Below, in pieces: positions 27,821-30,292 of a stretch of DNA of 45,630 nucleotides. The translations under genes and the position numbers were made by a program. The stretch's first letter is position 1. Each line of letters begins with the position of its first letter. The DNA is from Candidatus Micrarchaeota archaeon (GTDB lineage: Archaea > Micrarchaeota > Micrarchaeia > Norongarragalinales > Norongarragalinaceae): positions 3,653 through 49,282 of the forward strand of contig CAYZDE010000002.1 of assembly GCA_964477205.1 (NCBI GenBank), written 5' to 3'. The notes under the pieces were generated by a model that saw nothing but the letters and a program-made list of their open reading frames with translations, ran no database searches and was not told where the DNA came from.

Positions 27821-30292
27821 GTGAAATGTCCTGAATGCCAAAGCTCGGATACGCGCGTATTGGATAAGCGAAGCGTTGGAGACGCTGAAACGAACCGCAG
27901 GCGCCGCGAGTGCCTGAAATGCGGCAACCGATTTACTACTTACGAGCGCATTGAAAGCACGAACATTAAAGTCGTCAAGAAGGACGGCAGTTCGGTTGCA
28001 TTCGACGAGGACAAGATTCGCGAGGGAATAGAGCGTTCCGCGGGCAAGCGATTGGATGAGAAACAAATTCAAGCCATAGTCAAGGTAGTAATTGAAAAAG
28101 TGAAGAAGGCGTACCCTTCACAAGACATTCCAACTAGTGAAATAGGTGCGGCAGTGCTCGGCGAATTAAAGCAAGCGGATGAAGTCGCTTACCTGCGCTT
28201 CGCCGCTTTTTACAAGGATTTCGAAGGCGCGGAAGAATTCCAGCGCGAAGCGCGCTCCTTGCGCGAGCCGGACGCGAGGTTGCAAGCCAAATCGTTAATC
28301 ACGAAGATTCGCAAGCGCGACGGCAAGGTAGCGCCGTTCGACCGGGAACGCATCGCCAAAGCCATTTTGGGTGCGGCGAAGGCAATCGGCGGCAAGGACA
28401 AGAACGTTGCCGAGGAGTTAACGGACAAAGTCATTGCTTTCTTGAACTCACATTACTCGGATAAAAGGCCACCCGGGATCGAGGACATCCAGGACGCGGT
28501 GGAGAAGACGCTCATCGAGAACGGCCACGCGGCCACGGCGAAGGCGTACATCCTCTACCGAAAACAACGCGAAAAGGACCGGGAGCGCCGCTTCCTATTC
28601 CTCGACATCAACGAAGTAATGAGCGGCTACCTAACGCAAAGCGACTGGCGCACGAAGGAGAACAGTAACACGGACTACTCATTCTCCGGACTCATGCTTC
28701 ACACCGCGGGGAGCGTAATCGCGAATTACACCTTGAACGAGATGTACCCGTCGGAAGTCGCCGAAGCCCACAAGAAGGGCTACTATCACATTCACGACTT
28801 GTCTTCGGGCGTAGTCGGCTACTGCGCGGGCTGGTCATTGAAGAACTTAATCACGCGCGGTTTCAACGGCGTGCCGAACAAGGTGGACTCGAAGGCGGCG
28901 AAGCACTTGGACGTGCTCGTAAACCAAATGGTGAACTTCATCGGCTGCATGCAAATGGAATTCGCCGGGGCGCAAGCGTTCTCGAGCGTGGACACGCTCC
29001 TAGCCGCATTCATCAAGAAGGATAACCTGACTTACAAGCAAGTCAAGCAGGCAATGCAAGTCATCGTGTTCTCCTTGAACATCCCGTCGCGTTGGGGCAG
29101 CCAAATGCCTTTCTCCAACCTAACCTTCGACTGGATCGTCCCCGAAGACATGAAGAACGATAAGGCAATCGTGGACGGAAAGGAACAAGAATTCACTTAC
29201 GGCGACTGCCAAGCTGAAATGGACATGATTAACAAGGCATTCCTCGAGGTAATGAAAGAAGGGGACGCAAGCGGTCGCATCTTCACTTTCCCCATCCCCA
29301 CTTACAACCTAACCAAGGACTTCGACTGGAACTCGCCGAACGCCAAGCTATTATTCGAGGTCACCGCACGCTATGGCACGCCTTACTTCCAAAACTACAT
29401 AGGAAGCAACCTCGACCCGAAAAGCATTCGCGCGATGTGCTGCAGGCTCAGCATCGACTTGAACGAATTAAGGAGCCGAGGCAACGGCTTATTCGGCGCG
29501 GGAGAACAAACAGGCAGTATCGGCGTCGTGACGATTAACGTGAACCGCCTCGCTTACGAAGCGAAGAACAAGGAGGGTTTCCTCGAGAAAATCGCGCATT
29601 ACATGGAACTCGCCAAAAAATCACTGGAAATCAAGCGTAAGGTAGTCGACCGCAACATGGAAGGCGGGCTAATGCCTTACTCCAAGTCATACCTAGGCAC
29701 TTTCGACAACCACTTCGCCACCATCGGGCTCTGTGGGATGAACGAGGCATGCGTTAACCTAATCGGAAAGAACATCGCAACTCCCGAAGGCAAGAAACTT
29801 ACCATCGAAACCCTGGAATTCATGCGCGCTAAACTCGTTGAATTCCAAAACGAAACCGGCAATATGTACAACCTGGAAGCCACGCCGGCGGAAGGCGCGT
29901 CTTACCGCCTCGCGAAGGCGGATAAAAAAGCGCACGCCGACATTTACTTGAGCGGAGACGACGCCCCGTACCTAACGAATTCAACGCAACTGCCCGTCGA
30001 CCAGACGGACGACTTAATTGCGGCTCTGGAACACCAAAACGACATCCAGCCTTTGTACACCGGCGGAACCGTGTTCCACTCTTTCCTCGGCGAACGCGTG
30101 TCATCAGGGGAAGCATGCAAGCAACTCGTCAAGAAAATCGCGGAGAACACGCGCCTCCCTTACTTCTCGATAACGCCAACGTTCAGTATTTGCCCGGAAC
30201 ACGGGTACATACCCGGCGAGCACTTCACTTGCCCGATGTGCAACTCGAAAACCATAGGAAAGGAAGAGAAATTAGGCGTGCTATCGCAATAA
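27821..30292 (+). CDS. nrdD: Fusion protein: NrdR-like zinc ribbon and ATP-cone, a second ATP-cone, and the class III (anaerobic) ribonucleotide reductase catalytic body, lacking the glycyl-radical C terminus
   Basis: Residues 1-150 carry NrdR signatures (CPEC...[28 protein letters not shown]). Residues from about 160 have the NrdD ATP-cone ([14 protein letters not shown]). The catalytic region ends in [19 protein letters not shown]. GTG start behind an AGGTGG SD. Confidence 0.9.
   Translation: [823 protein letters not shown]

What the first reader, a model, noticed from the sequence alone, without database searches (positions are those of the whole stretch)
27821..30292. A complete NrdR repressor module is fused in frame to the N terminus of class III ribonucleotide reductase NrdD
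Seen in the sequence:
- There is one uninterrupted 823-codon ORF.
- Residues 1 to about 150 read [45 protein letters not shown] ... [20 protein letters not shown].
- That is a CxxC...CxxC zinc ribbon with the RRRR-x-C and RFTT-x-E signatures, followed by an ATP-cone ending in the Y-x-RFA..Y..F motif.
- Position for position this is the layout I recall for bacterial NrdR (E. coli: MHCPFC...RRRRQCLVCNERFTTFE...AYIRFASVYRSF).
- The frame continues without a stop into a second ATP-cone ([23 protein letters not shown]...) and the NrdD catalytic body.

Established knowledge:
- NrdR is a free-standing bacterial repressor of nrd operons whose ATP-cone senses ATP/dATP.
- NrdD normally begins with its own ATP-cone.

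Inference:
- This enzyme carries its own DNA-binding regulator. It may be an autoregulating, moonlighting reductase, or the NrdR module may have been re-used as an extra allosteric module.
- It sits in a genome whose core genes are archaeal, where NrdR is not expected, so the locus was probably acquired from bacteria.
- I am not aware of a described NrdR-NrdD fusion.
Basis: partly seen in the sequence, partly recalled or inferred. Interest (0 to 1): 0.8.

Follow-up and report, generated by a model that had tools for sequence, protein, structure and literature searches.

The report
Ribonucleotide reductase fused to its repressor
In this small archaeal genome the anaerobic enzyme that makes DNA building blocks is joined in one protein to NrdR, the repressor that normally switches that enzyme's gene off, and NrdR binding sites still sit in front of the gene, so the enzyme probably represses its own production.

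Summary
ORF 27821-30292 (823 aa) encodes a full NrdR module (zinc ribbon plus ATP-cone) that scores above NCBI's equivalog cut-off. A roughly 10-residue linker joins it to the class III reductase NrdD with its own ATP-cone.

It is not an assembly accident:
- A 66%-identical, full-length orthologue with the same layout lies on an independent 158-kb contig.
- Other fusions occur in DPANN archaea.
- The junction has neither an nrdR stop nor an nrdD start codon.

The fusion is rare. Most relatives keep nrdR and nrdD as adjacent genes.

Five NrdR-box-like sites, spaced 32, 31, 21 and 32 bp apart, precede the gene. Fused and unfused relatives carry box pairs 32-33 bp apart. All DNA-contact residues of NrdR are kept. 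Self-repression gated by ATP/dATP is therefore the best reading, though it is inferred and not shown.

- The ORF is not a whole NrdD. The glycyl-radical loop is a separate 59-aa gene (30308-30487). This split is common in metagenomes, and I found no paper describing it.
- Recent transfer from bacteria is not supported.

I found no publication describing an NrdR-RNR fusion.

The parts
27676..27691 (.). NrdR box 1 (ACTCAATATATAGTGG).
   Evidence: It matches 14 of 16 positions of the consensus acaCwAtATaTwGtgt and is the best match in the whole 45.6-kb window. A score this high occurred in 0 of 5000 dinucleotide shuffles of the intergenic region.
27708..27723 (.). NrdR box 2 (GAACAACATGTTGGTG, core palindrome CAACATGTTG).
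   Evidence: It starts 32 bp after box 1, giving a 16-bp spacer. The optimal spacer is 15-17 bp according to PMC12051234.
27739..27754 (.). NrdR box 3 (GCAATAAAGATAGTGG), a degenerate site with a good right half only.
   Evidence: It starts 31 bp after box 2.
27760..27775 (.). NrdR box 4 (CGTCCATATATGGTGG, core palindrome CCATATATGG), the upstream member of the proximal pair at -61.
   Evidence: Its position matches the pairs at -64/-32, -57/-25 and -60/-28 in relatives.
27792..27807 (.). NrdR box 5 (CTACAACATATCAATT), a left half-site and the downstream member of the proximal pair at -29.
   Evidence: It starts 32 bp after box 4 and scores 14 of 22.
27808..27814 (+). Shine-Dalgarno AGGTGGG, 6 nt before the GTG start.
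   Evidence: Read from the sequence.
27821..27946 (+). NrdR zinc ribbon (residues 1-42). It has C3, C6, C31 and C34, plus the DNA-contact residues R12, D15, R17, R26-R29 and R37.
   Evidence: PF22811 scores 68.3 bits. The residues were checked against the S. coelicolor contacts listed in PMC9110341.
27965..28270 (+). NrdR-type ATP-cone with its C-terminal helix pair (residues 49-150).
   Evidence: PF03477 scores 68.4 bits and TIGR00244 matches positions 1-145 of 147. K53, K54, K65, F127 and Y131 are kept. S. coelicolor E56 is V59 here, and V127 is F130.
28271..28300 (+). Linker (residues 151-160). It contains a relic of the nrdD Shine-Dalgarno (GAGGTT, 28276-28281) but no stop codon and no start codon at the NrdD N-terminal position.
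   Evidence: Junction comparison with unfused relatives. The AlphaFold2 model has pLDDT below 50 for residues 149-157.
28301..28573 (+). NrdD's own ATP-cone (residues 161-251).
   Evidence: PF03477 scores 87.9 bits. NF006126 matches from model position 3.
28658..30292 (+). NrdD catalytic body (residues 280-823). It has GYCAGW at residue 333, the finger-loop cysteine pair RAMCCRL at 540, and the zinc site CPEH (791) ... CPMC (804). It ends at TAA 30290-30292 without a glycyl-radical loop.
30296..30487 (+). Shine-Dalgarno AGGTGA (30296-30301) plus a 59-aa ORF (30308-30487) that encodes the glycyl-radical loop: MSENGICGKRCEVYSRVVGYYRPVQNWNIGKREEF...
   Evidence: The ORF matches Pfam NRDD positions 527-562 of 562 at 41.9 bits and NF006126 positions 646-682 of 684. 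Two in-frame stops separate it from the body. The same gene is present in L089, L086, L087, L012 and L002.
30493..31185 (+). NrdG, the radical-SAM activase of class III RNR.
   Evidence: TIGR02495 NrdG2 equivalog scores 216.3 bits against a cut-off of 131.15.
32814..33026 (+). A possible accessory gene: a DUF1858 / TIGR03980 'redox disulfide' mini-protein with an HCVGC motif.
   Evidence: TIGR03980 scores 54.1 bits against a cut-off of 44.95. A homologue lies close to nrdG in L086 and L089. Its membership of the system is inferred only.

Best explanation
This is a genuine gene fusion. It is derived from the common adjacent nrdR-nrdD gene pair by loss of the nrdR stop codon and the nrdD start codon. 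The product is one polypeptide: NrdR (DNA-binding zinc ribbon plus ATP/dATP-sensing cone), a flexible linker of about 10 residues, then the class III reductase NrdD (its own allosteric ATP-cone, the barrel and the zinc site).

The working enzyme needs two more products of the same gene cluster:
- a 59-aa peptide that carries the glycyl radical;
- the activase NrdG.

Proposed mechanism (inferred by analogy with free NrdR and with P. copri NrdD):
1. When dATP (or ADP) rises relative to ATP, the NrdR cones take up dATP plus ATP.
2. Pairs of zinc ribbons from two reductase dimers then bind the phased NrdR boxes at 27676-27807 and bend the DNA.
3. This blocks the archaeal promoter, so the gene cluster is shut off.
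4. The same nucleotide signal acts on the NrdD cone and inhibits the enzyme already made.
5. With ATP alone, the protein leaves the DNA and is catalytically active.

Because repressor and enzyme are one molecule, repression scales with enzyme concentration. That is negative autoregulation.
For: Shown:
- Architecture and family scores are as given in the observation check.
- The AlphaFold2 model has three folded modules and a low-confidence linker. Its best PDB matches are E. coli and S. coelicolor NrdR, followed by the N termini of class III RNRs.
- All residues that contact DNA in S. coelicolor NrdR are present: R12, D15, R17, R26-29 and R37.
- The best NrdR-box match in the window, plus four more sites, lie directly upstream at spacings of 32, 31, 21 and 32 bp.
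- In 5000 dinucleotide shuffles of the intergenic region, a top score of 20 or more occurred 0 times. Four or more hits at score 15 or above occurred 2 times.
- Box pairs 32-33 bp apart also precede other fused genes: L082, L084, L003 and L086. In L089 two strong boxes were found, but 86 bp apart. Pairs 32 bp apart precede unfused nrdR-nrdD pairs in archaea and bacteria too.
- An NrdD locus with no NrdR fused or encoded immediately upstream (L087) has no site at score 15 or above.

The fusion is real:
- L089 encodes an 816-aa protein, 66% identical over its full length, with the same fused ORF, small glycyl-radical ORF and nrdG, on a 158-kb contig from another sample.
- The partial fusion protein P0001 appears in two assemblies.
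- A second assembly record carries the identical window protein.
- The junction lacks both a stop and a start codon.

From the literature (these experiments concern free NrdR, not this fusion):
- Free NrdR binds DNA only when loaded with dATP plus ATP, as a tetramer on two boxes three helical turns apart (PMC9110341).
- Spacers of 15-17 bp are optimal, and distal plus proximal box pairs are known (PMC12051234).
Against: - No experiment exists. DNA binding by the fusion and its gating by nucleotides are inferred.
- The window's NrdR cone is fast-evolving. It is only 29% identical to L089, against 63% for the ribbon and 76% for the catalytic core.
- Two nucleotide-contact positions differ from S. 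coelicolor NrdR: E56 is V and V127 is F. Nucleotide sensing by this cone may be altered or decaying.
- Boxes 2, 3 and 5 are weak matches (9-11 of 16 positions).
- The promoter and transcription start are not mapped.
- Only 45.6 kb of the genome is visible, so a free-standing nrdR elsewhere cannot be excluded.
- It is untested whether a 90-kDa C-terminal load is compatible with the NrdR tetramer on DNA.
Confidence: 0.6

Rival explanations
1. The fusion is real, but the NrdR module no longer acts on DNA. It serves as an extra allosteric or oligomerisation module of the reductase, like the additional ATP-cones of some class I enzymes. The upstream boxes are bound by another NrdR or are vestigial.
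For: - The NrdR cone of the window is the least conserved module (29% identity to L089) and has lost the E56 equivalent.
- RNRs with two or three ATP-cones are known. The tandem-cone P. aeruginosa NrdA (5im3) is a structural match to the model.
- NrdR ribbons also occur fused to other partners: P0153, P0235, P0127 and P0131.
Against: - The zinc ribbon is well conserved (60-71% identity among fusions) and keeps every DNA-contact residue.
- NrdR-box pairs are kept upstream of most fused loci examined, and L089 keeps two strong boxes 86 bp apart. This includes type B fusions, which have no NrdR cone at all: L003 scores 22 and 20, L086 scores 20 and 18.
- No second nrdR is present in the window.
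Confidence: 0.2
2. The gene is fused but the cell still makes separate proteins. This could happen by internal initiation at TTG 28281, just after the relic Shine-Dalgarno GAGG, or by cleavage in the flexible linker. Free NrdR and free NrdD would then operate as usual.
For: - A relic GAGGTT lies where unfused relatives have the nrdD Shine-Dalgarno GAGGTG.
- The linker (residues 149-157) is predicted to be disordered.
Against: - There is no spacing between GAGG and TTG.
- There is no ATG or GTG at the position where NrdD starts in relatives.
- Linker length is kept at about 10-15 residues in L089, P0001, P0002, P0003 and P0004.
- Internal initiation could yield free NrdD, but it cannot yield free NrdR.
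Confidence: 0.1
3. The fusion is an artefact. A sequencing or assembly error merged two overlapping genes, nrdR and nrdD.
For: - Most relatives have separate genes lying -4 to +12 nt apart.
- One database 'fusion' (P0005) lies on a long-read contig with a shattered nrdD and is probably such an error.
- A TAA is present in the +1 frame at 28294.
Against: - NrdR homology runs in frame to residue 150 and NrdD homology starts at about residue 160 in the same frame.
- No start codon exists for a separate nrdD.
- The identical ORF occurs in a second short-read assembly record.
- A 66%-identical orthologue on an independent contig has the same fused ORF.
- P0001 appears in two assemblies.
Confidence: 0.04

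Closest known systems
NrdR, the free-standing ATP/dATP-sensing repressor of nrd operons (TIGR00244; structures 7P37 from S. coelicolor and 9FXK/9FVR from E. coli).
   Same: - Zinc ribbon with two CxxC motifs and the RRRR motif.
- D15 and R17 specificity residues.
- ATP-cone with its C-terminal helix pair.
- Palindromic boxes in pairs with 15-16 bp spacers upstream of the nrd genes.
   Different: - It is not free-standing. It continues after about 10 residues into NrdD.
- The host is archaeal. The literature calls NrdR rare or absent in archaea.
- There are five boxes here instead of one or two pairs.
- Two nucleotide-contact residues are changed.
Class III (anaerobic) ribonucleotide reductase NrdD of the PRK08270/NF006126 type, with activase NrdG.
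   Same: - N-terminal ATP-cone.
- Barrel with the CC finger loop.
- C-terminal zinc site.
- Adjacent nrdG.
   Different: - It carries a whole NrdR at its N terminus.
- It lacks the glycyl-radical loop, which is a separate 59-aa gene product.
Bifunctional enzyme-repressors: PutA, BirA and NadR (from my own knowledge).
   Same: One polypeptide combines a metabolic enzyme with a DNA-binding domain that represses the genes of the same pathway, with a pathway metabolite as the signal.
   Different: - The folds are unrelated.
- Here the fusion joins two proteins that also exist separately in close relatives.
- The same type of sensor domain (ATP-cone) is present twice.
RNRs with extra or relocated ATP-cones: P. 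aeruginosa NrdA (two cones, 5IM3) and L. blandensis NrdB (cone on the radical subunit, 5OLK; PMC5794259).
   Same: The ATP-cone is a mobile module, and tandem cones occur at the N terminus.
   Different: Those enzymes have no zinc ribbon, and no role in DNA binding has been proposed for them.
Split class II RNR NrdJa/NrdJb (P. aeruginosa; cited in PMC9669993), and GrcA/YfiD, the stand-alone glycyl-radical domain for pyruvate formate-lyase (from my own knowledge).
   Same: The C-terminal functional module of a radical enzyme is encoded as a separate polypeptide.
   Different: Here it is the glycyl-radical loop of a class III RNR. I found no paper describing that.

Membership tests
NrdR | N-terminal zinc ribbon with two CxxC motifs. 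| tested here: met
   C3, C6, C31 and C34 are present. PF22811 scores 68.3 bits against a cut-off of 27.2.
NrdR | RRRR motif and the DNA-contact/specificity residues (S. coelicolor R12, D15, R17, R26-29, R37). | tested here: met
   All are present at the same positions.
NrdR | ATP-cone directly after the ribbon, ending in Y-x-RFA..Y and a helix pair. | tested here: met
   PF03477 scores 68.4 bits. Residues 1-148 align with E. coli NrdR with a single one-residue gap on each side.
NrdR | Score above the curated equivalog cut-off. | tested here: met
   TIGR00244 scores 141.9 bits (whole protein) and 144.5 bits (residues 1-150) against a cut-off of 124.65.
NrdR | Residues of the inner and outer nucleotide sites (S. 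coelicolor V48, K50, R51, E56, F58, K62, K69, F124, V127, Y128). | tested here: inconclusive
   Eight of ten are kept or conservatively replaced. E56 is V59 and V127 is F130.
NrdR | Cognate NrdR boxes in pairs about three helical turns apart upstream of nrd genes. | tested here: met
   Boxes start at 27676, 27708, 27739, 27760 and 27792. The shuffle control supports them, and relatives carry the same kind of pairs.
NrdR | Free-standing protein of 140-220 residues. | tested here: not met
   It continues in frame into NrdD, giving 823 aa.
NrdR | ATP/dATP-dependent binding to DNA and repression. | not testable with these tools
   This needs gel shift or microscale thermophoresis, and reporter assays.
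Class III RNR NrdD | Score above the curated equivalog cut-off. | tested here: met
   NF006126 scores 1031.8 bits against 548. TIGR02487 scores 493.9 bits against 326.35.
Class III RNR NrdD | Finger-loop cysteine(s) and the conserved GYCAGW cysteine. | tested here: met
   RAMCCRL lies at residue 540 and GYCAGW at residue 333.
Class III RNR NrdD | C-terminal zinc site. | tested here: met
   CPEH lies at 791 and CPMC at 804.
Class III RNR NrdD | Glycyl-radical motif (RVxGY) at the C terminus of the same chain. | tested here: not met
   It is absent from the 823-aa ORF and present in the separate 59-aa ORF at 30308-30487.
Class III RNR NrdD | Dedicated radical-SAM activase NrdG nearby. | tested here: met
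   TIGR02495 scores 216.3 bits against 131.15, at 30493-31185.

The most novel reading that the evidence does not exclude
The locus shows an evolutionary series in which one protein becomes both the dATP-sensing repressor and the dATP-inhibited enzyme.

The proposed series is:
1. Adjacent nrdR-nrdD genes.
2. A type A fusion with two cones. The window is this type, and its NrdR cone is already diverging fast.
3. A type B fusion, where the NrdR zinc ribbon sits directly on the NrdD ATP-cone and NrdR boxes are still kept upstream (L003, L086).

If this is right, a single ATP-cone can gate both DNA binding and catalysis. In addition, the radical is carried on a separately encoded peptide of about 55-60 aa. 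That peptide could act as a replaceable cartridge after oxygen damage.
Probability: 0.3. Interest if true: 0.8.

Novelty: new variant of a known kind. Interest (0 to 1): 0.62.

Why it matters
[quoted passage not shown] Here the two control layers are welded into one chain in archaea, a domain where the literature calls NrdR rare or absent.

Practical and conceptual value:
- Free NrdR is reported to be unstable when purified (bioRxiv 10.1101/2025.03.28.645925). A natural fusion to a large soluble partner may be an easier object for structural work.
- The type A and type B variants make testable whether an RNR-type cone can drive NrdR-type DNA binding. That bears on how NrdR arose.
- The fusion adds a member to the small set of enzymes that repress their own genes.
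- The separately encoded glycyl-radical peptide changes the accepted subunit composition of many class III RNRs.

Tried and rejected
- Recent horizontal transfer: rejected. There is no GC anomaly, and homologous loci at 52-66% identity occur in other archaea.
- P0005 as a further fusion: rejected. Its contig has nrdD broken into four pieces, and its relative L006 has separate overlapping genes.
- Stop-codon readthrough between the NrdD body and the small ORF: rejected. The two ORFs are in the same frame in the window and in L086, but in different frames in L089 and L087. Each small ORF has its own Shine-Dalgarno and start codon.
- A neighbour-joining tree of NrdR modules. Fused and unfused sequences are interspersed, but the tree is too weak (150 aa, long branches) to count fusion events or to give the direction of any transfer.
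- A 99-row alignment for structure prediction (A2) partly misaligned the two cones and was not used. The seven-row alignment A1 gave only moderate confidence: pLDDT 71 and pTM 0.38, with no reliable arrangement between domains.
- Literature searches for an NrdR fusion, for NrdR in DPANN archaea, and for a split class III RNR found nothing relevant. Subscription-only papers were not searchable.
- Other box-like pairs in the window, such as 22368/22400, are weak and were not pursued.
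Full report
**1. The observation**

The window holds one open reading frame at 27821..30292 on the + strand (823 aa, GTG start). A Shine-Dalgarno AGGTGGG lies 6 nt upstream.

Pfam finds Zn_ribbon_NrdR at residues 1-42, two ATP-cones, and NRDD at residues 280-810. Scored separately, the ribbon gives 68.3 bits, cone 1 gives 68.4 bits and cone 2 gives 87.9 bits.

The NCBIfam equivalog for NrdR (TIGR00244) scores 141.9 bits against a cut-off of 124.65 and covers model positions 1-145 of 147. The NrdD equivalog NF006126 scores 1031.8 bits against 548.

Residues 1-148 align end to end with solved E. coli and S. coelicolor NrdR (E = 2e-28 and 3e-26).

An AlphaFold2 model of residues 1-320 has mean pLDDT 71. 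It shows three folded modules joined by a low-confidence linker at residues 149-157. Its best PDB matches are NrdR structures, followed by the N termini of class III RNRs.

The host is archaeal. The window encodes topoisomerase VI subunit B, an aEF-1alpha-type elongation factor and a class II phenylalanyl-tRNA synthetase core domain (PF01409).

**2. Is the fusion real?**

Adjacent but separate nrdR and nrdD genes are the common state. In GTDB species representatives, 18 of 19 loci that match both halves have a stop codon after NrdR. These include DPANN archaea, a Bathyarchaeota genome, CPR bacteria and many Treponema. In a metagenome scan, 25 of 26 such loci were unfused.

In the unfused archaeal relatives, the nrdR stop and the nrdD ATG lie -4 to +12 nt apart. 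A GAGGTG Shine-Dalgarno sits inside the end of nrdR. Such overlaps can be fused by a sequencing error. One database 'fusion', P0005, sits on a contig with a shattered nrdD and is probably such an error.

The window differs from that case in several ways:
- NrdR homology runs in frame to residue 150, and NrdD homology begins at about residue 160 in the same frame.
- Only a relic GAGGTT remains of the Shine-Dalgarno.
- There is no stop codon, and no start codon where NrdD begins in relatives.
- The identical protein and flanks occur in a second assembly record.
- Locus L089, on a 158-kb contig from another sample, encodes an 816-aa protein that is 66% identical over its whole length. It has the same fused frame, followed by the same small ORF, nrdG and a DUF1858 gene.
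- The partial fusion P0001 occurs in two independent assemblies.

I rate an artefact at about 4%.

**3. How common is the architecture?**

Three kinds of fusion were seen:
- Type A: ribbon, NrdR cone, NrdD cone, NrdD. Examples are the window, L089, P0001-P0004 and P0010. Sources name Aenigmatarchaeota, Micrarchaeota and Nanoarchaeia.
- Type B: the ribbon is joined directly to the NrdD cone. Examples are L003, L086, P0006-P0009, P0011-P0015 and P0121.
- Type C: NrdR is fused to a different NrdD subclass. Examples are P0187, P0061 and L102.

In a library of 1.84 billion cluster representatives, only about a dozen of the best 150 matches show a ribbon plus NrdD. The fusion is rare but recurrent. 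It is present in public collections under names such as 'hypothetical protein' or 'NrdR, partial'.

I found no paper that describes it. The NrdR literature calls the protein bacterial and 'rare' or 'absent' in archaea. The known exception is haloarchaeal nrdR-nrdAB acquired by transfer (PMC3019208, PMC9110341, bioRxiv 10.1101/2025.03.28.645925).

**4. Evidence on function**

DNA-contact residues. In the S. coelicolor NrdR-DNA structure, R12, R26-29 and R37 hold the backbone. D15 and R17 give sequence specificity, and the R17A mutant loses binding (PMC9110341). All of these residues are present at the same positions in the window protein. The ribbon is 60-71% identical among the fusions.

Boxes in the window. 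I scanned the whole window with the NrdR-box consensus acaCwAtATaTwGtgt.
- The single best match is at 27676 (14 of 16 positions).
- Four further sites lie at 27708, 27739, 27760 and 27792.
- The start-to-start distances are 32, 31, 21 and 32 bp. These are whole helical turns.
- The 15-16 bp spacers are those found optimal for NrdR (PMC12051234).
- In 5000 dinucleotide shuffles of the 209-nt intergenic region, no shuffle reached the top score. Only 2 gave four or more hits at score 15 or above.

Boxes in relatives.
- Box pairs precede fused genes: L082 at -55/-22 (33 bp apart), L084 at -64/-32, L003 at -79/-47 and L086 at -124/-92 (each 32 bp apart).
- L089 has two strong boxes at -112 and -26, which are 86 bp apart.
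- Pairs 32 bp apart also precede unfused nrdR-nrdD operons.
- L087, an NrdD locus with no NrdR fused or encoded immediately upstream, has no site at score 15 or above.

The proximal pair in the window (-61/-29) sits where relatives have theirs. By inference, its AT-rich core and the next box cover the archaeal TATA box and transcription start. This is not mapped.

These data favour retained DNA binding and self-repression.

The nucleotide-gating step is inferred from free NrdR. Free NrdR loaded with dATP plus ATP forms a tetramer that binds DNA. Loaded with ATP only, it forms a dodecamer that does not bind (PMC9110341). Inhibition of the NrdD half through its own cone is inferred from P. copri NrdD (PMC11226230).

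**5. Caveats**

The NrdR cone of the window is its least conserved module. Identity to L089 is:
- 29% for the NrdR cone;
- 52% for the NrdD cone;
- 76% for the catalytic core.

The S. coelicolor E56 equivalent, which hydrogen-bonds the inner-site adenine, is valine here. The V127 equivalent is phenylalanine. K50, R51, K62, F124 and Y128 equivalents are kept. The other type A fusions aligned keep the glutamate.

Type B fusions lack the NrdR cone altogether yet still have strong boxes upstream. Together these facts suggest that, after fusion, the NrdR cone becomes dispensable and the NrdD cone may take over. This is a hypothesis, not a result.

A free-standing nrdR elsewhere in the genome cannot be excluded. 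None is present in the window.

**6.

The 823-aa ORF ends after its zinc site (CPEH...CPMC). It matches Pfam NRDD positions 1-530 of 562 only.

After TAA, three codons, and a TGA that lies within the Shine-Dalgarno AGGTGA (TAA AAA AGG TGA), an ATG at 30308 opens a 59-aa ORF. This ORF carries CEVYSRVVGYYRPVQNWN. It matches NRDD positions 527-562 and the last 37 positions of NF006126. nrdG follows at 30493 (TIGR02495 scores 216 bits).

The same split, each time with its own ribosome-binding site, occurs in:
- L089, L086, L087, L012 (Pacearchaeota) and L002 (Falkowbacteria);
- Treponema, including cultured T. lecithinolyticum, where the radical peptide is fused to a thioredoxin-like domain.

A search with the 59-aa protein returned 400 clusters, which is the cap. 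The best 120 listed are all 39-101 aa long, and many lie on long contigs.

I found no paper on a split class III RNR. The split class II NrdJa/NrdJb is known.

**7. Origin**

GC content of the locus (0.53) equals that of the window. The NrdD half is closest to archaeal sequences. nrdR-nrdD pairs are shared by DPANN archaea, CPR bacteria and spirochaetes. A rough tree intermixes fused and unfused NrdRs.

The fusion most likely arose in place from an adjacent gene pair. Recent import from bacteria is not supported. An ancient bacterial origin of archaeal NrdR remains open.

**8. Verdict**

- The finding is a new variant of known kinds: a natural NrdR-NrdD single-chain repressor-enzyme with retained operator sites, in archaea. 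It is unreported in the literature I could search, although examples already sit in sequence databases.
- The mechanism is inferred and readily testable.

Noticed in passing
window 30296-30487; also L089 4001-4168, L086 4001-4180, L087 4001-4171, L012 about 6930-7053, L002 about 6775-6920, L009 and L016: Class III RNR is split. The glycyl-radical loop is a separate 40-70-aa gene with its own ribosome-binding site. In Treponema it is fused to a thioredoxin-like domain. At least 400 clusters of such stand-alone peptides exist in public data, and I found no paper describing this.
   Followed up: partly
window 32814-33026; L086 5822-6067; L089 4827-5069: A DUF1858/TIGR03980 'redox disulfide' mini-protein with a conserved CxGC motif lies near nrdG in all three full-length fused loci. 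It may be the reductant of this thiol-dependent type of NrdD.
   Followed up: partly
L003 3998-7474; L086 839-3988; proteins P0006-P0009, P0011-P0015, P0121: In type B fusions the NrdR zinc ribbon is joined directly to the NrdD ATP-cone, with no NrdR cone. The two type B loci whose upstream DNA was examined (L003 and L086) still have strong NrdR-box pairs 32 bp apart upstream.
   Followed up: partly
proteins P0127 (637 aa) and P0131 (639 aa): These have an NrdR zinc ribbon, an ATP-cone and an NrdD-like body that lacks both the CC finger loop and any glycyl-radical end. They may be pseudo-enzyme regulators derived from a fusion.
   Followed up: no
proteins P0153, P0235, P0140, P0192, P0194, P0244, P0250: Other NrdR-module architectures exist. 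One has a ribbon, an NrdD-type cone and an unrelated C-terminal domain. One, by eye only and not scored against any profile, looks like NrdR plus a YfiH-like domain. Several are NrdRs with two ATP-cones.
   Followed up: no
P0007, P0121, L086 and L087, after the motif NIPSRWG: Inteins are inserted at the same site of nrdD in several relatives. P0121 carries two and is 1443 aa long. The window gene has none.
   Followed up: no
window 22368-22415 and 20591-20641: There are weak NrdR-box-like pairs. One pair (22368/22400, 32 bp apart) lies upstream of tRNA-Ile. The other (20591/20626, 35 bp apart) lies upstream of the elongation factor gene. They are probably AT-rich promoter elements matching by chance.
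   Followed up: no
window 31233-32180 (- strand): A Fic/DOC-family gene sits between the nrd cluster and the DUF1858 gene. It is absent from the corresponding place in L086 and L089.
   Followed up: no
window 25948-27108: By eye, the S-adenosylmethionine synthetase looks like the bacterial MetK type (Pfam S-AdoMet_synt N, M and C domains) in an otherwise archaeal context. It lies two genes upstream of the SAM-dependent nrd cluster.
   Followed up: no
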